From Octopus vulgaris (lineage: Eukaryota): 64,000 nucleotides of DNA. This document shows positions 1 through 59,837 of this stretch, one piece after another. Both the position numbers and the translations under genes were made by a program. Every line of letters begins with the position of its first letter. Within the stretch, counting starts at the first letter, position 1. The notes beneath the pieces are model-generated. The model saw only the letters and a program-made list of their open reading frames with translations, was not told where the DNA came from and searched no databases. Where the stretch lies: the NCBI GenBank assembly GCA_951406725.2, contig OX597832.1:9362001-9426000 (forward strand), read 5' to 3'.

Positions 1-87
1 AAAATGGTGCATTTGTAAACTACATTTTGAGCTAAACAGCAACCTACTAACGGACAATATGACTTTACTCTGCAATTGCAACCGGGA

Positions 88-97
88 GTATTACTGC

Positions 98-139
<42 letters not shown>

Positions 140-255
140 TACTGTTGCTGCTGCTGCTGCTACTACTACTACTGCTACTACTACTACTACTACTATCATT
201 ATTATAAACAATCTTATTATTACTACTACACTTATTATCAGCATTATTATTATTA
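88..255. repeat. Compound (TAT)n/(TGC)n/(TAC)n trinucleotide microsatellite
   Basis: Direct reading; explains the poly-Y/poly-I ORFs. Confidence 0.95.
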
Positions 256-1933
256 ATATTAGTACTAATTCCATCAATTATAGTATCACTTAAATTTATT
301 GCACTACCAACAGGTACTGTGTAAGTAATACCTTGCTTAGCATAAACATCAGTGTCACAATTTATGTTATGCATATTCGATTTATTAGATCTGTAGTTCT
401 GGATTCTTAGATATCCACTATTATTACCATCAATACAGGGGTTTAAATCATTATGAACAATATTAGGATAATTATTAATTCCTCGTGCTTTCGTGAGATT
501 CTGATCGTCGTACGGGAAAATATTATATTATACCAATGGGATGCTGGGAATCTTTTATCTGAAATTGCCATAAGTTTATTATGTATTTTGGTAGATATAG
601 CATAGTTAAAAGGAACATTATACCTGACTATATTACTCTTTCCAGACGTCTTATGTTTGCGAAGGTCAATTCTATCTACTCTTCTTTTGCGATGAACGAA
701 CGACTGTTCAATCATCGCATCCTGTATACATAAAAATGCACATACACACAGACGTATATATAGACACACACACACAAGCACATTTATATGTATATACATA
801 CACACACATATGTATATGTATATATGCATATATATACACACACACACATATATATATATATGCATGTGTATTTATATATGCACATACATATGGCGCAAAT
901 TGACCCAAAGATAGAAATTTGTTGTTATCCTAGTGATACTAAATTTGCATTGTAGTCAGTCAAGCAATATAAATATAAATGTTATGACTATAAACTATTT
1001 TGCCCAAAGCTATTTTGCACTTACGAGAATGAGAGATGACTCAGAATAAGGAAATATTAAATATTCATCAATGAGCACCTCAAGCATACATTACAGGCAT
1101 CAAATGCGTAACTGTTATCTGCATCGTTTTGACTCCTGAGCAGCATTATTCAATCTGCCATAGTCAGTAGCTTTAAAATTGTAAACGGCGCCTTGGAATC
1201 CATAGACAATCAGCAGGACCTAACCATTTCAAATATTGGCCCTTAAGACGAAACGTTATTAATATCAATAACAAAATCCCATATTAACAAAATAGTGTTA
1301 ACATATAAGTACAAAGATAGAGATGATAAGATAAGTCACTATTGCAAGTAGAAATTGTTTCCAAAACGGATATTCGTGACCCCAAATCCATAGTACGAAA
1401 TAGAACTAGCGAAATATACGTATTGAAGAAAAACTGCAGACGTTCTGGTACATTACATTATGTATACAAGAGATCTACAACATCAAACATGAAGATTAAC
1501 TAACGAACATAGATTAATTGATATGCTGTTTTTCCTTCTATAATATATTCCAACGTCACACCACATTAGAATGTAACCTATATATATATATATAAACTAT
1601 TTTCCACAAAAGATGTGCAACGGAAAAAAAACAAAACAAACATAGATCAATATCTATTAAATATGTCTAATTATAGAAAATAAATTAACCGAGTGAATTG
1701 CTCATCAAAAATAAAACTAAAATTTCGAAAATAATTATTAAATGTATAAAATATAACGTAATATAAAAACCAGTAAAAATGTTAAATTGCAACAAATTAA
1801 TACCATAAATAAAACGATCTAACTGCAAGCACACTGAATAACTTATCAAAGAAACGTCACCAAATGTCTACTATATGGGAAGACACATGCACGTATACAC
1901 ATTCACACACATATACAGACGGATATGCGTGTG

Positions 1934-5321: not shown

Positions 5322-5950
5322 TGATGGTCCTTTGGAAGACATTCGTCCTCTGCCACTTAGACTACTGCTCCCAACTATGGTCACCACACAATATGAAGTT
5401 AACAGCTGAACTCGAAGCAATCCAACGAAGCTACACTAAGAAGACCGTCTCAATGCAACATACCAGCTACTGAGGAAAGATGGAAAGTATTAAAAATCTT
5501 CTCCCTGGAGCGACGGCGGGAGATATATGCAGTGATATACATCTGAAATATCCTGGAGGGTCTTGTCCAAAATTTTGACATTGAAAGTTACCCTAACTGC
5601 AGAACATGGCGCCACTGCATGGTGCTAAATCGCCCAACGTCACCATCAAAATGCACGACCAGATACTGCAACAGCTTGTGTTTCAGGGGACCACAGCTCT
5701 TCAATATCCTTCCTGAATGCCTGAGAGACCTGTATGGTGTGGATGTGGGTTTCTTTAAAACTAAACTGGATCTCTTATTGTCAGGGGTTCCAGATGAACC
5801 TACCTATCGGCAGGAAACACAGATGCGGGCAGCGGCGTCGAACGCCGTTGTTGACAAAGTGCTACGTATCAGATGTGGTTTCACATACTAGTGTAGCTCA
5901 TTCAACGGTGGGGCCCCAGTATGGCTGTATCTCTCGAGCTGTAACATTTT
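5321..5950 (+). mobile_element. 5'-truncated CR1/L2-group LINE 3' end (degenerate ORF2 C-terminus plus 3' UTR)
   Basis: Translates to [54 protein letters not shown], typical of the post-RT region of CR1/L2 LINEs; has stops and frameshifts; begins directly after a (TA)n tract. Confidence 0.85.
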
Positions 5951-6003: not shown

Positions 6004-7104
6004 TACGGTGAGAAAAAGGAAGCAACATTTTGGACCATGAAGAATTTGTACCTGATTGTTTCACAGTTTCGAGTTTTCAAAAATATTTTTAGCAATTGTC
6101 TGATAATACACTCATAGACTTGCCCAAATTTATCAATAATTTAACATTGATATTTTGTCCCCATTGTTACAATCCTGTGATATGGAACTGTGAAATCGCA
6201 ATATTCGAGCAATTTTGCAATTCAAGTACAAAACAGGACGTAAAGCAGCTGAAACTACTCACGAAATCAACGAATCGTTAGGTGAGGAAATGACAAGCCA
6301 AAATGCTCGAAAATGGTTTAAACGATTTTGCAGGTGAGTGGACGCCCATCTGTCATCGATGACAGTTAATTTAAGACCGTCATTTAAAAAATATCCCCGT
6401 AAAACCACTCAAGAACTGGCAAAAGAGCCTCAGGTTAGGTCGAAAATATTCTGTACAATAATATTCTGTACAGTAATAATAAATAAACATTCTTGCGAGT
6501 TTTTGGAGCAAAATGAGGGTCCGAAAACCTTCCTTAAACACAAGCTCTTCAAAAGAAGGTTATGGTGACTGTTTGGTGGTGTACTGCTTGACTCATCCAT
6601 TATAACTTCTTAAAATCCGGAAAAGAAAAGCCATTACTGCAGAAACGTATTACCATGAAATTGCCAAAATGACCGAAAAGATGCTAATCCTACGTCCCAG
6701 ACTGGCCAAAAGTAGAAGGTCAATCATTCTTCATGACCATTGTCGACCACACGTTTCACTAATGTCGCTTCAGAAGTTCAGGGACTTGACTACCAAGTTC
6801 TCCACCACACAACTTTTCACTCGACATTTCTCCTGCCGACTACCACTTTTCAAGCGTATTGATTGTTTCCTGCGAGAGAAAGAGTTCGAAGGCCAAATCG
6901 ATGCTGAAAGTGCGTTCAAAGAGTTCATCAACTCCAGAAAACCAGATTTTTATGCTACCGGAATAAAGATATTTGTATCTCGTTGGCAAAAATGTATTGG
7001 TTGTAATGGTATCTTCTTTCATGAATAAAATTCCCGCATTGTTGAAATATATTATGTTGAATTTCACGTTTCGAAACGTTGCATGCTTTTCACTCATTCT
7101 GATA
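6004..7104 (+). mobile_element. Degenerate, internally deleted mariner transposon (Hsmar1/cecropia-like)
   Basis: Peptides [70 protein letters not shown] match mariner DD34D transposases. Degenerate TIRs: 6004 tacggtgagaaaaaggaagcaac vs reverse complement of 7072-7101 cagaatgagtgaaaagcatgcaac. The region carrying the first catalytic Asp appears deleted near 6440-6480. Confidence 0.9.
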
Positions 7105-8368: not shown

Positions 8369-11300
8369 CGTGTAATGCATTGTCAACTTTCCTTCCTGTA
8401 CATACTTCAAACTTAGGCCTTTCAGTCATTCGATCTTTATGCCATTTGAAATTGAAATTGATATTCAGGATCCAGACGTTCGAGTTTCTTGTGTTTTGCA
8501 TTATTAATTAAACAAGACAACATATCTACACCCACATGTTCTCTCTCTCTCTCACACACACACACAGGCAATCTCACACAGAAGCGTCTTTACGCTTGTG
8601 CATTCGTTCAATTTACTAAATCGTTCCATTCAAACTTAGTGACCAAATACGTATGACTACTTAAATGCCATCCACTGTATATTACAATACAACATAGTTA
8701 AATTTGCATGCCCATATATGGGAAAGCAAAAACCGTCTCGATTGTGCAGTCAAGTAGCAATGTAAATTTTATTTTCCTATAGACAGCTTGCGAAATAACG
8801 AAATGAGCTACTTATCATATGCAACCACACGATTCTCCGAACATTTAAACGTTTGAGAAAGGAACAATGGATTTAGTATATTCTGAATCTATGAATCGGA
8901 TTAAACAAGAGCTACACAACAAACTATGGTGCCATTTATTTATTAAATTTCTCACTTCATGTACAATATAAGTATTGAACTTTCTCCATTTCGCTTTCAT
9001 CGCAGTTACACCAACGATTCAATTATCGGAGTTACCTTAATATTCTGGTGATATGATGAACTAGTTTTATTTTAGCTTCAGTAATTTGTAAATGACTCAG
9101 TGTACTGTATAATGCGATGCATGCATATTAATGGAAACAGGTAAACATAATTCATTCTATACTGAAATTATTAGTGTATGAATAAAGTTGCGAAGTGGTC
9201 GTAATCCTTACGAAGTCAAATGGTTAAATAAACATATTCATCTCTCATGCCTCCTATCTAGTATACACTTAGTTACCTACATACCTTCATACATACACAC
9301 ATACATACATACACAGTGACAGATACACACACACATACAGAGGCACACACACACGCACATTAATATATGTGAAATATGGAGAGAGAGAGAGAAAGAGAGG
9401 GAGAGAGAGAGAAAGAGAGGGAGAGAGAGAGAAAGAGAGGGAGAGAGAGAGAATCAAATATAGAGGGACAAAAACTCACTGAAATTCAACAGGTCATCTC
9501 CCTTTACTCAGACGTTCGTATCGAAGACTGCAACACATTGTCGAGTTTAAACTCTTATAGGTCTTATGCTGAAATATATAGAAATTTTTCATGTAATAAA
9601 TTGTTATTTATACAGTGTCCGTATATACTACATTAGGAAAAAGGAGATACGTGGGTAGATTGTGAATTTTTGTGTTAGAAAAATCTTGAGACACCTACTA
9701 TCGAATAAACAATGGTAATCAGCCCAATATGTGACAAATAAACGTATCATTCATGCGTATGTACAATTTGAGAGCAAGACAGTTTGAAAGATGTTTTATA
9801 CTGTAGCTAAACAAAATTGAAAATTCTTGGATGTTGAATTTGGCAATAGGTAGAGCGTGTGCTTATGTGCGTGCGTGTGTGTATGCGCGTGTGTGTGTGG
9901 GGGTCATGCGAAAGAATAGGGAAGAAAAAAAGAGTATTATCAATGAGAATATATAGGTAGTATGAGTGCATAATTTTGGGATGTAGCAGTGAATATGTGT
10001 ATGTGCGTGTGTGTGTATGTATGTTTATGTTTTGGATGAAGTAAAATATGTATACGTTCACAATATGACTAAACGTCTGATATGGATGCACTCATGAATG
10101 TCGACAAATATCAGAGTTGTATTGAATTTCAGGTTTGTATTGTATTTCGTATGTATTAGAAACACACAATGCATCTTTTACGAATGAGGTCCTCTAGGAA
10201 TTTGGAATTATATTCTAATTCATTATACAGCTTAATACTATTGATGCCCGTGTGTGCTGAGTAAATGCATTAAGAAATGGAACATTACTTATTATCCGAA
10301 TTCTCAAATGCATTAGCGCATTAATGTATAGTATATATACAGCATCTTAAAACTGCACAACAAACTTTGGGGGGTTTTATGTGCAAATACACATGGAATA
10401 AGAGATGGATTTTAGAAGGCAAAAAACTTAACCAAAGAAAAACAAGACAAAGCCGAGCAACACGTTTTCAATTATGAAAATAACCTTAAAGACGAACATT
10501 TAGGATATATGGATAAGGAAATTTTTTTTTTTAAAAAGCCACTCATGAAAAGACGAAGGAATGGAATATGGCGTATTTTGGGTACATTAAAAGGTCTTGG
10601 CATTTAAATAATTTACTACTCACTGCGATATCTGTTTGTACACGTTGTTAATTTAATATGAGAAAAATTGTCATCGCAAATCATTAATATTCCTATTGCG
10701 ATAATTTTCATTTCCGTAAAATATTGTACGTGAAGTTACGCAACGATATATACTCATTTATATATATATGTGTGTGTGTGTATATATATATATATTCACA
10801 CACGCTCACTCACTCGCTTACACACTAACACACGCATATGTATGAACATATAGATGTGTATACAGAAGGAGACTAAGTTGGTATGATTCAGGGAATGTGC
10901 AATATAATTTTACTTACTATAATAAAAATAAAATGCATCATTTACGCAAGGAATTCGTACAGATTAGCTTGCATCAATTTTAGATCCAACCTTATATGAC
11001 TTAGCATTTTATATTAAAGGTTGGAATAAAATAATTTACCTTCACCTACACTGAGCCATTCTATACGGGACTACATATTCTACAATGCCCTTTCAGAATT
11101 GTTTAAATTTCAGAGCTATCTAGCTCGTACCAGTGGTGAAATTAACAATTAGCCCTTCTGTTAATAGAAGATGATGAATAAATATGGCTGAGTAATAGAG
11201 AATTTTGTACAACCAGCCGGTTTGCGGAGTCGTTGATCTTCGTGTGGAGCCAAGAAAAATCATGCTTTTTCAAAGTTGTACGGTTATCAAATTCTTTATA

Positions 11301-11575: not shown

Positions 11576-12141
11576 GGAAAAAAGCAACAAGAATGGATTA
11601 AAATCTCGGTACGATCGTTTCGTACGAGGACATCTTTAATAAGCTACAAAAATGCAGTGAATACAGATGGCTCGTACTCGTCAGCCGAAAAAACATCAGA
11701 GAATTCCCAAACATCAAAAGGGGTAGATACAAAGGAGGTTGTAAGATTAGCTGCATTGAAGAAAGTTCGATTCATGGAGATCCGATGAAAGGATTTAAAC
11801 CTATAGAATTTATGCATGTCTACATATAGCTCATATTGAATATTTGATCAAGTTGTGTGAAGAAATTTTCGGATACAGTCATGCAAAATTTCTGAAAATC
11901 CGAGTAACAGGTAAAGTGACTGCCATATCATGTAGAGGAAAGTCTGAGTAAAAGCAAAGTGACTATATATATATACGACGGACTTCTTTCAGTTTCCGTC
12001 TACGATATCCACTCATAACTCTTTGGTGTGCCCGAAGCTATAGTAGAATACACTTGCCCAAGGTGCCACCTAGTGGGACCGAACTCGGGACCATTTGGTT
12101 GGTAAGCAAGCTACTTACCACACAGCCACTCCTGCGTCTAT
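11370..12141 (-). mobile_element. tRNA-derived SINE family 1 copy, split in its central microsatellite by an HHR-bearing insert
   Basis: 3' half (11370-11515) and 5' half (11965-12141) match the intact copy at 24522-24955 in reverse orientation. Confidence 0.85.
11604..11690 (-). ncRNA. Type I hammerhead ribozyme, canonical core, long stem II
   Basis: Minus strand: UUUCGG-CUGACGA-GUACGAG..CUCGUAC-GAAA-CGAUCG-UA-CCGAGA; 7-bp stem II base, palindromic stem III, GUA cleavage triplet. Confidence 0.85.
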
Positions 12142-24152: not shown

Positions 24153-24521
24153 AGAAGGATGAAACACATGACTATATACACACGCACACACTTCACACAC
24201 ACACACACACAAGGACTTATATGGAGACACATATCGATACATGACAAAGGCACGTACATAGTCACACAATACCATACACACAGACACACTCAAACATACA
24301 GTTAGAGATAGAAGTACACACACACACAAACTCAGGCAAAGATATAAAACACACATAGACTCAGGAAAAGATAGAAAACACACACACACAAAAGGACATA
24401 AACATGAGCACACAAACGCATGAATATGCAGAATACTTGCATAAAATTGTGTACACATATACGTATATATGTGCGTACACGTACATGCAGACATGCGAAT
24501 ATACATACACAGTTATGTATA

Positions 24522-24686
24522 GGCGCAGGAGTGGCTGTGTGGTAAGTAGCTTGCTTACCAGCCACATGGTTCCGGGTTCAATCCCACTGCGTGGCACCTT
24601 GGGCAACTGTCTTCTACTATAGCCTCGGGCCGAGCAAAGCCTTGTGAGTGGATTTGGTAGACGGAAACTGAAAGAAGCCCGTCGTA

Positions 24687-24736
<50 letters not shown>

Positions 24737-24955
24737 TGTGTGTGTTTGTGTGTATGTGTTTGTCCCCCTAGTGTTGCTTGACAACCGATGCTGATGTGTT
24801 TATGTCCCCGTTACTTAGCGGTTCGACAAAAGAGAAGGATAGAATAAGTACTGGGCTTATAAAAGAATAAGTCCCGGGGTCGAGTTGCTCGATTAAAGGC
24901 GGTGCTCCAGCATGGCCGCAGTCAAATGACTGAAACAAGTAAAAGGGTAAACGAG
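24522..24955 (+). mobile_element. Full-length tRNA-derived SINE family 1 (A/B boxes, central (TA)n/(TG)n, LINE-like tail)
   Basis: A box GTGGCTGTGTGG, B box GGTTCAATCCC; about ten homologous copies or fragments in the window. Confidence 0.9.
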
Positions 24956-27416: not shown

Positions 27417-27468
<52 letters not shown>

Positions 27469-30544: not shown

Positions 30545-31178
<634 letters not shown>

Positions 31179-32308: not shown

Positions 32309-33189
32309 ACCCCCGTTCATATGCTACACTCAATTTGTCAACTTTTGCTTGTCGTTGTGTGCCACAAAAAATTATTTCTATCTATCACAAAAAAGGACGG
32401 TCTATTTGTTTGCGGTCAGCTGAATGCCAAGAAATCTAGTGAACCTTCTCGTCCAATCCATGTATGTGGCATCAACACTGAATGATAGGAATGTATATGT
32501 CTATGTGGTTAGTGTTCCATATTTCCTGTAATAAAACTGCACAACGCCAAACAACTCATGCACGTTTGGCAGATCGTTTCAGTAAAAGTGACAAGCCACA
32601 ACGCTACCCCACCTCACGAAAATAGCAAAAGTGTCAAATAAATTCTTTTGGGGAAAAGTTACATTATACTGTGCTTATGATAACGTATTATGATTTTCCT
32701 ACGTAATATGCAAAGTATTATGTCCTCGGTATATTCTAATACACCAGCAGTAAATTCAAATATTTAATCTAAATGTATCCTCAGCACCTCAAACAACCAT
32801 TTTGGAAAGTTTGCGCCTACTACACCTCTCGCCAAGCATCTCTTACTAAACTTCATTCTTCGCTCCGGATCATATTCAGTTAGAATACAAATAATTTTTG
32901 GAACGCAACTTTTCAAAAGACAGCGTTTCAAAATGCGACAAGAACCTGATTTTGAAATTCCTAACTGATATCTAGATTACCACATAAATTTTCTTGAACA
33001 CTTTCTTGCTTTGTGAGACTCGTGGGTGTCCGTACTGCCTCCCAACGTTCCTTTTCGACATTGTAAGCAGTTCCACCCACTTCAAAATTACCCCTGCATT
33101 TTTCTTTACACTTCAAATGCCTCTTCAATTGCTCGTAGCACTTGAGGACTCACATCCTTTGTTATGCATCTCGTTTTCATTAACATGGT

Positions 33190-33375
33190 GGCGCTGTGTC
33201 GACAATAGTCCACTTAACGCTGGGTATTTAATCTCGGAGATTATGGAGTCACCAGAGAAAACGAGACAAGGAAGTACAGTTCTCTCTGTCCCTCGATCTG
33301 AACGAATGCGTAAGCTGGGAGTATCTTCCCTTGAAGTCATTAGCTGATATACCCATATAGTGCCTAGTAATTGCA
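33190..33375 (-). mobile_element. PLE GIY-YIG endonuclease fragment (inverted relative to the adjacent RT)
   Basis: Minus frame: HYMGISANDFKGRYSQLTHSFRSRDRENCTSLSRFLW*L..SVKWTIVDTAPP matches the YIG..FKxRYxxHxxSF..TxLSxxxW..WxI pattern. Confidence 0.7.
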
Positions 33376-33433
33376 TATGATGGGTAAGGGTGGCTCTGAA
33401 TACTACGGTCCTTCCACTACATCTACGGATTAA

Positions 33434-34130
33434 TTCGGCTTCAAATCCCAAGTGTGCCCGCCACGTGTGAAAGAACTTGAGAAATTCGAGACTGATCTAT
33501 GGAACATTCTAAAGAAGGTAAGGTTTCAACATTATTTTAACCCCTTCCTTAAATCCCTACATGGCCATCTGACCAGCATTAAACAATTACTCAGCATACA
33601 CACCCTGTCAGGAAAAACAAAAAGCATTTGCAAAATGAACACTTCCACACACTCAAGTCTTCTTACGTGTGTCATCACCAAAACATAAACAAAACCAGTA
33701 ATCCCATATACAATAATATGAACGCAGGAGCAAAGGAGTTTGCCATCCGCCTTAATATAGAGGAACATATGAATTGCTTCACCACGTGACACCCCTTCAA
33801 TTTTACACTTAAGGACCTCACTTCCACTCCAATCTCAAATGCAGGATGATCAACCTCTCTAAAAGTGAGACAGGTAGTATTAGTAAAAATATTCTCGGTA
33901 TCACCAACTCGATTTCAGAATAGCTACAGGGACTTCAGCGCAAACGTGGTCGACTGGTTCCGCGGTGTGGAGAATAAATCAGCCTGTTGTTTCACCCTGT
34001 CTGACATTGTTAATTTTTCCTTTCCATATCTAAGCCCCTCGTCCTGAATGCTCTAACTGCTGTTGAGCAATGCACCAGCATTAGTCATCTTGACATCACA
34101 TCAGAATGATCATGAATGCCAGAAAGTCAA
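33434..34130 (+). mobile_element. PLE RT N-terminal remnant
   Basis: FGFKSQVCPPRVKELEKFETDLWNILKKVRF..SGKTKSICKM..CRMINLSKSE..WFRGVENKSACCFTLSDIVNF, typical of the N-terminus to motif A of metazoan C-terminal-EN PLEs; many stops. Confidence 0.75.
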
Positions 34131-36365: not shown

Positions 36366-36600
36366 TCTCTTTTACTTGTTTCAGTAATTTGACTGTGGCC
36401 ATGCAGGAGCACTGTCTTTAGTCGAGCAAACCGCCACTCCCCAGAACTTATTCTTTGTAAGCCTAGTACTTATTCTATCGGTCTGTTTTCTCGAACCGCT
36501 AAGTTACGGGGACGTAAACACACCAGCATAGCTTGTTAACTGATGTTCGGTGGACAAACACAGACACACAAACATAGACTCACACGCACATACACATATA
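36366..36600 (-). mobile_element. SINE family 1 3' half
   Basis: CTCTTTTACTTGTTTCAG..GAACCGCTAAGTTACGGGGACGTAAACACACC matches the family; truncated at its central (TA)n. Confidence 0.85.
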
Positions 36601-36609
36601 TAAAATATA

Positions 36610-36670
<61 letters not shown>

Positions 36671-36856
36671 TAAGCAATTAAGGGTTTAGCAACGAATTGC
36701 CTCGCCACACACCGAATTTAGAAATAGCAGTCAAAGAGTTATAGCTATTCTTTCTACTAAAAGGGAGATCTCAGTAAAAACACAGCACTTGAAAGGCAAA
36801 CACAGACAGGTAAGAGAGAATGAAATGACGGCAATGCATCATACAATTTTAAGTCA

Positions 36857-36948
36857 CCTACGGACGTACGTTTCGAAATCAAGTTTTAGGAAAGCATAAG
36901 AATTAGAAAATTCTACCTTACCCAAACTTCTTTTCTCATCAGCGTAGG
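36857..36948 (-). ncRNA. Type I hammerhead ribozyme, canonical core with GUC site, long stem II
   Basis: Minus strand: CCUACG-CUGAUGA-GAAA..UUUC-GAAA-CGUACG-UC-CGUAGG; 6-bp stem I, palindromic stem III; cleavage between 36863 and 36862. Confidence 0.88.
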
Positions 36949-37034
36949 ATACTACAATTATGAATAATTGTATATTAAATTTTGAGATACTAGAAGGCAA
37001 AATCTCAACTCAGTGTGATTTTAATGATTCCGAA

Positions 37035-37325
37035 AGGGGGCAATTACCTGGGACTACCGAGCAGATGTCGCTATAATTGCAACGATCTATGCTTTGAAAA
37101 CGGGACCGAAACCAGCCGCTTTCAGGACAGCTATCAAGTACTAATGCTCGACTCTATCAAAAGCTTTTGCTTGATCAAAATTGATCAACGCCCCACCAAT
37201 ACCAGATTCCTTACCTACACTGTCTATGATATATCGCGTGAGGTGGAGTTTGTCGTGGATAGATCTGTTCGAGGGCATGTTTGCACCTCACTGACTAATC
37301 TAGCAACGACAAGCGCCAACAGGAG
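37035..37325 (-). mobile_element. Tx1/L1-clade LINE RT fragment
   Basis: Minus strand: LVSEVQTC..SIHDKLHLTRYII..GALINFDQAKAFDRVEH*YLIAVLKAAGFGPVF. Confidence 0.8.
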
Positions 37326-38395
37326 ATATCTGAATTTGAAATGTTGTAATTGTATAATTGCAATTCTGATCTACCGGAACTAGAGATAGGAATCACAAAT
37401 GTATTTATCCGGATATTCATTACTTACTTACAACTCAAGATTATACGAGACAATTTGGTAGTTAATTGCAAAGAATCCATGGCTACAAAGCTAGAGAACT
37501 GTGTTGCCAGTGTTATACTTTCGGATGCTGCCACTATTGCTCATGTCATTGATATTGTTTTATTCTTACGTAAGACAACATCAGTGAAATAGCCCAGTCC
37601 AAAATGGATTAGTGTATAACCATTCCATGTTATTAAATAAATTGATCTAACTATGTAATCGGTAATGCTATTCGTCCTATATTTTCTTTCAGATTTTCGA
37701 TTGAAGAGTTACATAAAATGTGTAAATGGTACAAACATTAGTACCGCATATAAGAAGATTGGGTGGTCTTCCGGTTGTCTGAACTCTGAGTTGAAATCCC
37801 GCTGCCGTAATTGTCTCACATTGTTTGCAAATTCTTAAACAAGATACTAGTTCACATAAGTGAATAAATTGATTTATTACAGCGACAATGAATCAGCCCA
37901 TGAAAGCTTTGATATTTTAGTATTGTTTATTCATCGTATAAGATTGGTGCATATCGTAAGAAAGGCTATACTAATTGTATTTTGCCTTAAACAAGTCAGG
38001 AATCGTTAGACAAAACAACAATAGAAAACTCCCGTTCAAATGGGCTGATATTCATTCAAGCCATTACAAAGAGATACAAACGTTTATAAAGTTATGCATT
38101 CTCGTGCTCAGATGTACAGCCACACCACAATAGTTTTCTTGTGTTTTCTCTATGATGTATACATAGTTTCATTGTTATAGATTTGCTAACAGTACATCCT
38201 TATAATTTTCACATATATTCGTCTGAGTTATTTATGCTGTTGATTGTATTTAATTGTAAAGGTAAGAAGAAAAAGAGCAGATTTAAAGAATTGGGTTGAA
38301 TATATGTTTATTCGGAGCAGGTGCCTGTGAATTAGATAAAAATACATTAAACATCTGTGTAAGGAAAATTGTGGGAGAGAGACAAGTATATTATA

Positions 38396-45536: not shown

Positions 45537-46520
45537 TGGAACTAATAGCCTGCCAAAGAGTAATCGCGTGCCTGGAATACAAGTACTTGCTGGCTGACAC
45601 CCAGCATAGATTTCGACGAGGAAGAAGTTGCCTAAAATACGACTGGGTGACAAAACAGTTGTTAAATGATTCAAGTGTGGGTTGATATATCTAAAGTTTT
45701 CAAAAGCCCTGCTTTACCATCATACAAAGCTGAACGACATGCAGACAAAATACACTGGCCAGGTAGGAATTGCAATATTATTAAATTATTAAAAAATCAG
45801 TGCTTGTCCTGAACGTTAATATGAGCATTGATGCATCTTTACATGTGCACATTATCAATTTGGAAATAAAATGCAGGTAGCAACCTGATGGATACTTCGA
45901 ACTTTCCAATCAAGAGAAAAGGAGATAATGCTGGTCCTTTGGAGGACATATGTTCTCAGCCGCTTGCACTACTGCTCCCAACTATGGTCACCACACACTA
46001 TAAAATTAAGGGTGGAGCTCGAAGCACTCCAAATAATCTACACCAAAAGATCGTCTCAGTGCCACATATCGCTTATTTGGAAGGCCGAAAGAATTAAAGC
46101 TCTTCTCCTTAGAACGAAGCGGGGAAAGATATGCAGTGAGATACAACTGGGAAATCATGGAAGGCCTTGTACTTTGGCATTGAAATTTACACAGACAGCA
46201 GAACGCGGCGCCACTGCATAGTGCCAAAGATCGCAGTATCTCCATCAAGTCACAGGAACGGATACAGGAAAAGCTTCAGTTTCAAGGGCCCACAGCTATT
46301 CAGTATTCTTCCAGAATGACAGCTAGACCTGCATAGTGTGGATGTAGGTGTCATCAAAACAAACCCAGATCTCTTCTCACAGTAGGAAACGCAGATGTGG
46401 GCGGCGGTATCAAACTCCCTCATTCACCAAATGCCATACATCAGAGGAGGTTTCAAATAACGGTGTAGCATAGTCAACGGTAGTGTCCCAGCAAAACCGC
46501 AGTTACGAAGCTAATATCAT
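45537..46520 (+). mobile_element. Second CR1/L2-group LINE remnant (internally deleted)
   Basis: LADTQHRFRRGRSC (RT motif) and [23 protein letters not shown]..; 3' region homologous to 5321-5950. Confidence 0.85.
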
Positions 46521-56818: not shown

Positions 56819-56963
<145 letters not shown>

Positions 56964-57260
56964 GATAAGAGTAAATAATTTCTATAAAGGCTTTTAAAAA
57001 AAAAACAATTATTTACTGGTAGAATTCGGTATGTAAATATAGCCGATTACCGGCAGGAACTTCTGTGAAGTTCAGTATATATATTGTATATAAGAAAAAG
57101 GGACAGGCAAAACAGGTTGCTTGACCGCATACCGAAAAAATAGAAATAGCAGTCAAGAATGCTTATTTCTATCAAAGTTGGACTCCGGGCATGACAGACC
57201 CTGTAATTCACATATGCAAAACAGAAGGAATAGATAACGAATACGAAGTCTGGCGGTTAT

Positions 57261-57371
57261 CTGTGAACATCATGTTTCTGGATTATAAACATATTGAATA
57301 TATATTCCATATATTTTTGATATATATTTCATATATATTGCAAATATATTTCACATCCTTCTTCAGCACAG
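57261..57371 (-). ncRNA. Type I hammerhead, long stem II (inverted copy)
   Basis: Reverse complement of 57874-57984. Confidence 0.7.
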
Positions 57372-57873
57372 CTTTCCATTGAAAAAGATTTATCATAGAT
57401 TTATCAAATGCTACGTACCTCAAACCTTCTGACCATGCGACATCAAAATATTTGAAGAAAGTGAGCAAAGGCTAAATCTACATAGACGTTTGAATTCATA
57501 AATCTTCCCTCCGCGGTCAAGCAACCTGTTTTGCCTGTCCCTTTTTCTTATATACAATATACAGAAGTTCCTGCCGGTAATCGGCTATATTTACATACCG
57601 AATTCTACCAGTAAATAATTGGGGTTTTTTTAAAAGCCTTTATAGAAATTATTTACTCTTATCATTATATTACTATTTGGATTTTTCACTCCCTTTGACA
57701 GCCTATTTTTGTAATGCGCATGGCAGAATTTTGGAGGGAAGATTTATGAATTCAAACGTCTATGTAGATTTAGCCTTTGCTCACTTTCTTCAAATATTTT
57801 GATGTCGCATGGTCAGAAGGTTTGAGGTACGTAGCATTTGATAAATCTATGATAAATCTTTTTCAATGGAAAG

Positions 57874-57984
57874 CTGTGCTGAAGAAGGATGTGAAATATA
57901 TTTGCAATATATATGAAATATATATCAAAAATATATGGAATATATATTCAATATGTTTATAATCCAGAAACATGATGTTCACAG
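57874..57984 (+). ncRNA. Type I hammerhead, long AU-rich stem II
   Basis: CUGUG-CUGAAGA-A-GGAU..AUCC-A-GAAA-CAUGAUG-UU-CACAG. Confidence 0.7.
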
Positions 57985-58062
57985 ATAACCGCCAGACTTC
58001 GTATTCGTTATCTATTCCTTCTGTTTTGCATATATGAATTACAGGGTCTGTCGTTTGTTTTC

Positions 58063-58198: not shown

Positions 58199-58945
58199 CG
58201 AATTCATCAAAGGAGTATTCAAAACAAGAAAACCACCCCCAACAAATAGACACGTAGATGCCTTTGAAAATGAATTCTAGGATACAATAACGAGGCTAAA
58301 TTTTAAGCGACACCCACAAAGGGATCACAGCTACCAGAGGAACCTAGAAGACCTGATATATGCCACAAATCACACACAATTGAACATGAAGGAAATAAAT
58401 GTAAAATTAGAAGGGAGGATATCACTTATTAGCTTTGATAATAAACTCTGGGTACGTAAAGGAACCCCTTTTGATATCCCCATGGGAGCCCCATATTCAG
58501 CACAGATAACTGATCTGGTAGACATCTATTTGCTATCACGCATACAGGACGAATTCCCGGAACTCAAACGTGGACCCTACAGGGACGACGCTCTCTTCAT
58601 AATTAATTCACACTCAAATAGGAAACTAGAGCTTATCAATAAAAGCTACATAAATTCTTCAAATGTTTTGGACAATCTATCTCTATTGAAAAGGAACAGA
58701 CACAGCCTGCCATCTAACCACAGGACTCTATGAACCATACATGAAACCCAACACGAACCTCATATACATAATCACTGCAAGTAAACACCCACAATTTATG
58801 AAGAGTAGCCTAGTACATAGCACTAGTAATAGAATTTCACGCCTCTCTTCTAACGGAGACATCTTTAACAGACATAAAGAAACCTATAACTCCACACTAC
58901 GGAAAGCAGTATTTAAACAAAGAATCAAATACCTAAACCTTAATC
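58197..58945 (+). mobile_element. PLE RT remnant (YRDD type), internally deleted
   Basis: FKTRKPPP..FENEF; FDIPMGAPYSAQITDLVDIYLL; GPYRDDAL; YEPYMKPNTNLIYIITASKHPQ..RISRLSSNGDIF (thumb); starts after (TA)n. Confidence 0.85.
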
Positions 58946-59837
58946 ACCCTATAAGCAGCCCAAATAACAGGAAACCACTCACTAGTACAACTAACCCCAA
59001 CCACACACCATGCTCAATCGCAAACAAATTACGGGTAGCCCACATGAACCCAACGAATAAGAAGGCGAGATTCAAGATGATACAGCTCTGATTTTATGCC
59101 TATCTACATTATAAAACACACACACATACACACACACACACACACACATACACATACATACGGTGCCGATGCTGGGGTTACGTTGCACTTGTAATTTTGT
59201 GTACATATATGTCTCTATCTATATCTATATCTACCTAACTATCTATCTATCTATCTATCTATATATATATATATGTATATATGTATAGCTATATCCAGCT
59301 ATCTAGCTATCGTTCGTTTGATCAATATAATTTGCAATTTTTCTCCTCTCTCTCTCTCGCTCTCTATGTATATGTGTGTATTTGTGTGTGTGTGTGTGTG
59401 AATGTATTTTTATGTATGAATATGTCCTTCATATATGTAGATAAAAACATAATATTTTTTGATGCAAGGAGGAAAATAATAGAAAATTACAACCTGAAAT
59501 ATGATTTGTAACGTACCTGTTGGTAGGACAGTGAGATTATAAAGAGAAACAACTTCAATGTTTAATACATAGAATTGACATTTTAACGCTGAGTACAAAA
59601 CCTGTAGTAAATCTACGGTTATACACATTTAATGCAAGAAAATGACAAAAAAAATATTTGCAATAGAAACACATATAGAAACAATACCGAATTTAGGACG
59701 TCGGTTGGCATTGCACGCTCAGAGTATGTATGCATGTAGAAAGACGCAAGACATTCTGTTAGAAACGCTTGTATAGGTGATGTGCTGTAGTACAGATGAT
59801 AAAGAGATATTAATATATCTGATAGTGTTAAGGTGTC

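What the first reader, a model, noticed from the sequence alone, without database searches (positions are those of the whole stretch)
36670..36960. Textbook GUC hammerhead element, again inserted at a SINE's central (TA)n
Seen: the best HHR in the window (6-bp stem I, CUGAUGA, G-C closed stem II extended by AAGUUU/AAACUU and UAGAA/UUCUA, GUC site). Its 3' end abuts the (TA)n of a truncated family-1 SINE in the same orientation, as at 11.6 kb. Inference: the most likely catalytically active copy; it could cut a minus-strand host pre-mRNA if this region is intronic.
Basis: partly seen in the sequence, partly recalled or inferred. Interest (0 to 1): 0.7.

Follow-up and report, generated by a model that had tools for sequence, protein, structure and literature searches.

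The report
Dimer-type hammerhead in octopus retrotransposon remnant
This is a well-formed self-cleaving RNA (hammerhead) motif inside a truncated copy of a highly repeated, likely octopus, mobile element that ends on a TA microsatellite; it is likely the tail of a Penelope-like retrotransposon, is predicted to cut well only when two copies pair up, and so is probably an ordinary transposon relic, not a switch that cuts a host gene.

Summary
The hammerhead is real. Minus strand 36948-36857 has a 6-bp stem I, an intact CUGAUGA/GAAA core, a G-C-closed stem II and a GUC site (cut 36863/36862). No shuffle reproduces it (0 of 100; 0 of 30). Alone the RNA folds with its core sequestered; two copies fold unaided into a double hammerhead (-64.0 vs 2 x -27.9 kcal/mol). 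The motif lies 193 nt from the 3' end of a ~347-bp, 5'-truncated copy of a very high-copy repeat found in runs with three organism labels. That copy ends on (TA)n in front of a headless SINE tail. At its 5' end it is joined to an unrelated L1/Tx1 RT fragment. The window also holds three other hammerhead repeat families ending at or near (TA)n and four Hydra-clade Penelope ORF remnants. Published Hydra elements target (TA)n and carry 3' hammerheads, and 31 of 59 metagenomic Hydra loci showed one. Best reading: the 3' end or non-autonomous derivative of a Penelope-like element; a link to an ORF was not shown. No host gene was found. Known kind; long stem II is the only oddity.

The parts
36857..36948 (-). 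Type I hammerhead ribozyme: stem I 6 bp, core 36942-36936, 61-nt stem II region, GAAA from 36874, helix III palindrome ACGUACGU 36871-36864, C17 36863; unpaired U1.7 at 36856
36670..37016 (-). 5'-truncated copy (~347 bp) of a very high-copy interspersed repeat carrying the hammerhead; the family continues beyond 37016 in other copies
   Evidence: summed contig depth 2.5-4.6e5 over 36672-37019 vs 42 on the unique flank in run X1; loose ends at 37013-37016 in all four runs
36719..36750 (-). 3' subterminal hairpin motif shared with the unrelated hammerhead element at 57 kb (exact 16-mer 36719-36734 = 57141-57156)
   Evidence: (local score 35, best of 100 shuffles 30)
36612..36669 (.). (TA)n tract at the element's 3' end, inferred insertion target
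36369..36609 (-). 3' half of a SINE (positions 194-428 of the full copy at 24518-24950, 81% identity); head missing
37017..37319 (-). Broken L1/Tx1-type LINE reverse-transcriptase fragment, a separate repeat family joined to the element's truncated 5' end (37093-37319 by tblastn; on to ~37017 by eye)
   Evidence: (RVT_1 + zf-RVT homolog named from Argonauta hians, 78% identity); depth falls to ~100 at 37020-37077

Best explanation
The hammerhead sits in a 5'-truncated copy of a very high-copy repeat that ends on a (TA)n tract, and this repeat is likely the 3' terminal region (pseudo-LTR) of a Penelope-like retrotransposon or a non-autonomous derivative of one, whose ribozyme is predicted to cut efficiently only as a pair of copies. 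Mechanism (inferred): a PLE GIY-YIG endonuclease nicks (TA)n, here the central microsatellite of a SINE. The element's RT copies the RNA from its 3' end and stops after ~347 nt, leaving a solo terminal fragment. In the parent element two tandem terminal repeats would join their palindromic helix III (ACGUACGU) into a double hammerhead and cut the element out of a longer transcript. This solo copy has no partner in cis and is probably largely inert. It keeps sequence on both sides of the cut site, so its template RNA was uncut at this site or circular.
For: Shown: hammerhead beyond chance. Unconstrained co-folding of two copies gives the double hammerhead with open cores, 8.2 kcal/mol better than two monomers, whose own fold pairs the core away. 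The stretch is a multi-copy repeat in 4 of 4 laid runs with three organism labels: 2013, 1448, 541 and 191 contigs laid. It is truncated at 37016, and the best-supported alternative 3' end (29 contigs in X1) also ends in TA-like letters. Context: three further, unrelated hammerhead families in the window have their 3' ends at (TA)n (11.6, 27.5 and 57 kb). The 57-kb unit has an adjacent inverted truncated copy, a PLE hallmark, and shares a 3' hairpin with this element. Four Hydra-clade PLE ORF remnants lie in the window. Literature: Hydra PLEs, including Octopus bimaculoides Hydra-1_Obim, prefer (TA)n and carry 3' hammerheads (PMC8557442 section 11 and supplement tables). PLE hammerheads have palindromic helix III, act as dimers and occur mostly as solo truncated copies (PMC4209133). 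Own comparison: 31 of 59 metagenomic Hydra loci with an EN C-terminus and at least 150 nt of tail have a sense type I hammerhead 73-518 nt downstream, against 2 of 59 antisense; 4 of the 31 have an 8-nt perfect palindrome as here (19 of 78 loci dropped for lacking the C-terminus or tail).
Against: No PLE ORF is linked to this family. A Hydra profile finds nothing upstream of any of the window's four hammerheads, and BLAST of this element against the 78 Hydra loci found nothing. Exact-pattern scans found no further copy in viral, metagenome or prokaryote genome contigs, so a full-length copy could not be read. The 6-bp stem I / 4-bp stem II / 2-bp helix III build is what PMC4209133 calls the canonical, tandem-repeat (retrozyme) type. 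The 61-nt stem II is longer than in any of the 31 Hydra hammerheads (10-39 nt). The distance from cut site to (TA)n (193 nt) exceeds that of the 9 Hydra loci with a TA run after the motif (32-106 nt). The SINE head is missing, so the insertion geometry is inferred.
Confidence: 0.68

Rival explanations
1. A dispersed monomer of a non-LTR retrozyme: a 170-400-nt hammerhead repeat that elsewhere forms tandem arrays, is cut to unit length, circularised by RtcB and re-inserted by PLE enzymes.
For: Canonical 6/4/2-bp build with palindromic loop (PMC4209133). Size range fits (PMC7229834, passages). The copy spans the cut site, as a circle-derived cDNA would. A run guessed to be RNA holds the repeat (X11). 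Retrozymes are reported to derive from PLE pLTRs (bioRxiv 10.64898/2026.07.22.740005), so this rival overlaps the best reading.
Against: None of the 6 joints listed in four runs goes back (no tandem or circle junction within 36672-38390), though contigs show presence only and a junction could lie outside the laid stretch. There is a single copy in 64 kb, with a defined 3' end on (TA)n.
Confidence: 0.17
2. A hammerhead-bearing non-autonomous element of another kind, e.g. a SINE-like or composite unit in which the hammerhead part, (TA)n and the SINE tail move together under a LINE.
For: Three of four hammerhead elements lie head-side of a tail of the same SINE in the same orientation (11.6 and 36.7 kb directly, 27.5 kb with ~120 nt between), though only 8 of 46 (TA)n tracts touch this SINE.
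Against: The three are unrelated sequences. At 11.6 kb the SINE head is still present, which shows insertion into an existing SINE. Small, post hoc sample; a strand bias for compound (TA)n(TG)n targets would give the same pattern.
Confidence: 0.08
3. One reading: an active intronic ribozyme that cuts a minus-strand host pre-mRNA, possibly co-opted.
For: Intact core, GUC site, unpaired U1.7. Stem I forms with probability 0.9-0.99 in short nascent contexts. Axolotl monomers of similar type show 6-22% cleavage per hour (PMC7229834), so some leak is possible.
Against: Dimer-type helix III with no partner in the window. Stem I probability falls to 0.0-0.2 in several longer contexts. No host exon seen. 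It is one of very many copies with ordinary copy-level changes.
Confidence: 0.05
4. The hammerhead belongs to the L1/Tx1 LINE whose RT fragment lies just upstream on the same strand.
For: Same strand, 70 nt from the motif.
Against: The RT breaks in mid-domain at 37017. Contig depth collapses at the junction (about 100 vs 2.5e5). Loose ends show that each family continues with different sequence in other copies (37013-37016 and 37096).
Confidence: 0.02

Closest known systems
Hydra-clade Penelope-like elements, e.g. Hydra-1_Obim of Octopus bimaculoides (Craig et al. 2021, PMC8557442)
   Same: Sense-strand type I hammerhead near the 3' end, (TA)n target, self-complementary helix III, octopod host, 5' truncation; Hydra ORF remnants in the same window
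   Different: No sequence match to the published Hydra-1_Obim motif (compared by eye). Stem II region is 61 nt vs about 22; helix III is an 8-nt perfect palindrome, not the usual 9-10 nt; the 3' tail is 193 nt vs about 30; no ORF link shown
PLE hammerheads with small palindromic helix III (Cervera and de la Pena 2014, PMC4209133)
   Same: G10.1-C11.1, palindromic helix III, dimer-dependent build, mostly solo truncated copies
   Different: [quoted passage not shown]
Non-LTR retrozymes of animals (PMC7229834; bioRxiv 10.64898/2026.07.22.740005)
   Same: Canonical 6/4/2-bp type I build, non-coding, similar unit size, high copy
   Different: No tandem array or back-joint seen; dispersed, truncated and anchored on (TA)n

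Membership tests
Type I hammerhead ribozyme | Core CUGANGA + GAAA + UH around three helices, stem I open | tested here: met
Type I hammerhead ribozyme | Match to an Rfam hammerhead model | tested here: not met
   the long stem II probably defeats the models, so this does not count against the motif
Type I hammerhead ribozyme | Self-cleavage at the UH site | not testable with these tools
   needs in vitro transcription; only contigs were available
Penelope-like element (Hydra or other hammerhead-bearing clade) | RT + GIY-YIG ORF upstream of the terminal repeat | tested here: inconclusive
   copy is truncated 70 nt above the motif; Hydra profile finds nothing there; no full-length copy obtainable
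Penelope-like element (Hydra or other hammerhead-bearing clade) | Sense hammerhead in the 3' terminal region with self-complementary helix III | tested here: met
   compare 31 of 59 Hydra loci
Penelope-like element (Hydra or other hammerhead-bearing clade) | 3' end at (TA)n and 5' truncation | tested here: met
   this copy; family-wide (TA)n preference only hinted by one loose-end class
Penelope-like element (Hydra or other hammerhead-bearing clade) | Partial tandem (pLTR) or adjacent inverted truncated copy | tested here: inconclusive
   absent at this locus; one opposite-strand joint in one contig of X4; present in the 57-kb element that shares the 3' hairpin
Non-LTR retrozyme | Head-to-tail tandem repeats of 170-400 nt, each with a hammerhead | tested here: not met
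   single copy in the window; no back-joint among 6 joints in four runs; arrays elsewhere in the genome could not be examined
Non-LTR retrozyme | Abundant unit-length circular RNA | not testable with these tools
   no raw-read RNA run was offered
L1/Tx1 LINE | Motif continuous with the LINE in other copies | tested here: not met

The most novel reading that the evidence does not exclude
Octopus genomes carry several unrelated, very abundant hammerhead families with unusually long stem II arms and family-specific helix III palindromes that act as pairing barcodes. Transcripts of one family could then complete, in trans, the solo copies embedded in host introns and cut host pre-mRNAs, making transposon expression level a genome-wide, family-specific RNA cleavage switch.
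Probability: 0.06. Interest if true: 0.65.

Novelty: new member of a known kind. Interest (0 to 1): 0.22.

Why it matters
As best read, it adds one more hammerhead-carrying, (TA)n-targeting retroelement family, from an octopod, to a described class. Two points are useful. Rfam misses these long-stem-II motifs (0 of the window's 4 families at gathering score), so cephalopod hammerhead counts such as the 235 reported for giant squid (PMC6962438) are probably far too low. And four families with orthogonal palindromes give a ready test set for the open question of what PLE hammerheads do and whether they dimerise in cis or in trans.

Tried and rejected
No own genome is held, so there is no genome-wide count, consensus or gene annotation. 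Rfam: nothing. Exact 22-nt pattern in viral, metagenome and prokaryote genome contigs: 0 each. Family continuation motif elsewhere in the window: 0. No RNA holder listed on record; X11 is only guessed to be RNA and covers repeat parts only (10 of 30 bins), so it says nothing about expression of this locus. In X11 summed depth 3' of the cut site is about 10 times that 5' of it (about 1.3 in X1, 2-4 in X4 and X9), but contig depth cannot rank parts: a lead, not evidence. Pfam on 300 frames: three hits, all rejected (SNARE and Arm-DNA-bind_2 below cut-off; TAF8_C on a translated microsatellite); about 95 shorter frames were not scanned, and the scan also missed known TE fragments, so it is insensitive. 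MITE reading: no terminal inverted repeat in this truncated copy. I first took the window's PLE ORF remnants for Naiad from memory; the motifs match Hydra. Bacterial promoter scan: irrelevant, at chance level. Earlier scan findings: none returned. Helix III and element words in the Craig supplement: no match to this family (line breaks could hide a word). The Lunse et al. 2017 paper on dimeric PLE hammerheads (recalled) is not held. Repbase, Dfam and the O. vulgaris repeat library were not available, and the PMC13282606 supplement was listed but not read, so the family may already be catalogued.

Full report
Observation. On the minus strand 36948-36857 reads stem I CCUACG, core CUGAUGA, a 61-nt stem II region opened by G-C, GAAA, helix III, GUC, and stem I CGUAGG. 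The cut site would be 36863/36862. A descriptor search found this and the 11.6-kb motif, and nothing in 100 of 100 dinucleotide shuffles. A looser one added 27575-27506 and found no perfect-core palindromic hit in 30 of 30 block shuffles. Both descriptors missed a fourth family at 57 kb, found by eye. Rfam reports none of them.

Anatomy that decides activity. Helix III is A-U, C-G and a GUAC loop, so the 8-mer ACGUACGU is self-complementary (-9.8 kcal/mol as a duplex). The monomer's lowest-energy fold pairs the core with helix III residues, and the active monomer holds 0.003 of the ensemble (tertiary contacts are not modelled, so this is a lower-bound style figure). Two copies folded without constraints give the double hammerhead, -64.0 vs 2 x -27.9 kcal/mol; the other three families do likewise. 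Cross-family helix III pairs are weak (+0.9 to -3.2). Stem I probability ranges from 0.99 to 0.0 with the flanks included. In favour of competence: an intact core, a GUC site and an unpaired U1.7 (role per PMC11875169, passages). PMC4209133 (parts 1-2 of 4 read; supplement passages, file 1 not searchable) states that such a helix III blocks efficient monomer cleavage and that PLE motifs cut weakly even as dimers. PMC7229834 (passages) gives 6-22% per hour for axolotl monomers.

The carrier. Twenty of 24 listed runs hold part of the stretch, 7 of them at half the words or more. Laying four runs at 80% likeness gave summed contig depth of 2.5-4.6e5 over 36672-37019 in X1, against 42 on the unique flank, and a like contrast in X4, X9 and X11. 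The tool warns that this is no copy number; thousands of copies is my inference. Loose ends at 37013-37016 in all four runs show that the family goes on upstream, so this copy is 5'-truncated. A loose end at 36695 (29 contigs) shows a second 3' end type, also finishing in TA-like letters. None of the 40 difference rows shown falls in core, stem I or helix III, but 70 rows were not shown. None of 6 joints goes back; one contig changes strand. The neighbour at 37017-37319 is an L1/Tx1 RT fragment, with a homolog named from Argonauta hians, and a separate family. That homolog is the call-based sign of an octopod host; my recognition of the SINEs as octopus SINEs is recalled. On the 3' side lie (TA)n 36612-36669 and the tail half of a SINE; its head is absent. 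At 11.6 kb an unrelated hammerhead element splits a complete SINE at its central (TA)n.

Why Penelope-like. Hydra-clade RT/EN remnants lie at 3-709, 8670-8864, 33171-34097 (RT and EN on opposite strands) and 58215-58986. Craig et al. (PMC8557442; passages, section 11, supplement part 2 of 59 and passages) list Hydra-1_Obim with (TA)n preference and a hammerhead about 30 nt from its 3' end, and describe 5' truncation and adjacent inverted copies as PLE traits. The 57-kb element ends on (TA)n, carries a Hydra-type 9-nt helix III, has an adjacent inverted truncated copy, and shares a subterminal hairpin with the present element (exact 16-mer; score 35 vs shuffle maximum 30). In 78 metagenomic Hydra loci, 59 had the EN C-terminus and at least 150 nt of tail; 31 of 59 had a sense hammerhead and 2 of 59 an antisense one, and 4 of the 31 had an 8-nt perfect palindrome. 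Against: no ORF could be tied to this family, its stem II and 3' tail are longer than in any of those loci, and its 6/4/2-bp build is the canonical retrozyme type. The preprint 10.64898/2026.07.22.740005 (parts 1 and 3 of 5; supplements not seen) derives retrozymes from PLE terminal repeats, so the two readings are close kin.

Host-gene claim. No exon was found among 300 frames scanned, a weak test. No locus-specific RNA evidence exists. With no partner in cis, cutting of a read-through pre-mRNA would be slow or need a same-family RNA in trans. Unsupported, not excluded.

Novelty. Eight literature searches turned up no description of this family or of long-stem-II octopus hammerheads. The O. 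vulgaris repeat annotation (PMC13282606, part 1 of 3 and passages; supplement not read) lists 31 recently active Penelope-like families and never mentions ribozymes. The giant squid paper reports 235 Rfam hammerheads (PMC6962438, passages). PMC5786205 and PMC10886601 (passages) added nothing on this family. The kind of system is known; the family is probably undescribed as a ribozyme carrier. Verdict: real motif, ordinary retroelement context, new member of a known kind, interest 0.22.

Noticed in passing
window 11577-11964 (-), hammerhead core to cut site 11684-11610: Unrelated hammerhead element (GUA site, palindrome ACGAUCGU, 56-nt stem II) that splits a complete SINE at its central (TA)n; 33 nt from cut site to (TA)n
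   Followed up: partly
window 27575-27506 (-): Third perfect-core hammerhead family (GUA, palindrome ACAUAUGU, 4-bp stem I, 51-nt stem II), about 38 nt from (TA)n(TG)n at 27446-27467
   Followed up: partly
window 56962-58052: Fourth hammerhead family in two inverted, 99.7% identical copies (cores at 57879 + and 57366 -), 81-nt stem II, Hydra-type helix III, inverted truncated end copy at 57513-57670, 3' end on (TA)n; shares a 3' hairpin with the 36.7-kb element
   Followed up: partly
window 31054-31099 (+): Minimal PLE-type hammerhead with one core change (CUGGAGA), beside a long (TAA)n tract; read by eye
   Followed up: no
window 3-709 (-), 8670-8864 (+), 33171-34097 (both strands), 58215-58986 (+): Four broken Hydra-clade Penelope RT/GIY-YIG remnants in 64 kb, suggesting far more Hydra families in octopods than the single published one
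   Followed up: partly
window 11.6, 27.5, 36.9, 57.9 kb: All four perfect-core families have 51-81-nt stem II regions, against 10-39 nt in 31 Hydra hammerheads from metagenomes; unexplained, and the likely reason Rfam misses them
   Followed up: partly
run X11 on window 36672-37019: Summed contig depth about ten times higher 3' than 5' of the cut site in a run guessed to be RNA (1.3-4 times in the other runs); contigs cannot rank parts, worth checking with raw reads
   Followed up: no
window 5547-5888, 45889-46218, 6606-7025 (+): Frames that look like further LINE RT and mariner-type transposase remnants (labels recalled, no call confirms them)
   Followed up: no
loci L002-L077: 31 type I hammerheads downstream of Hydra PLE ORFs in marine metagenome contigs, an unlisted extension of the published Hydra set
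   Followed up: partly
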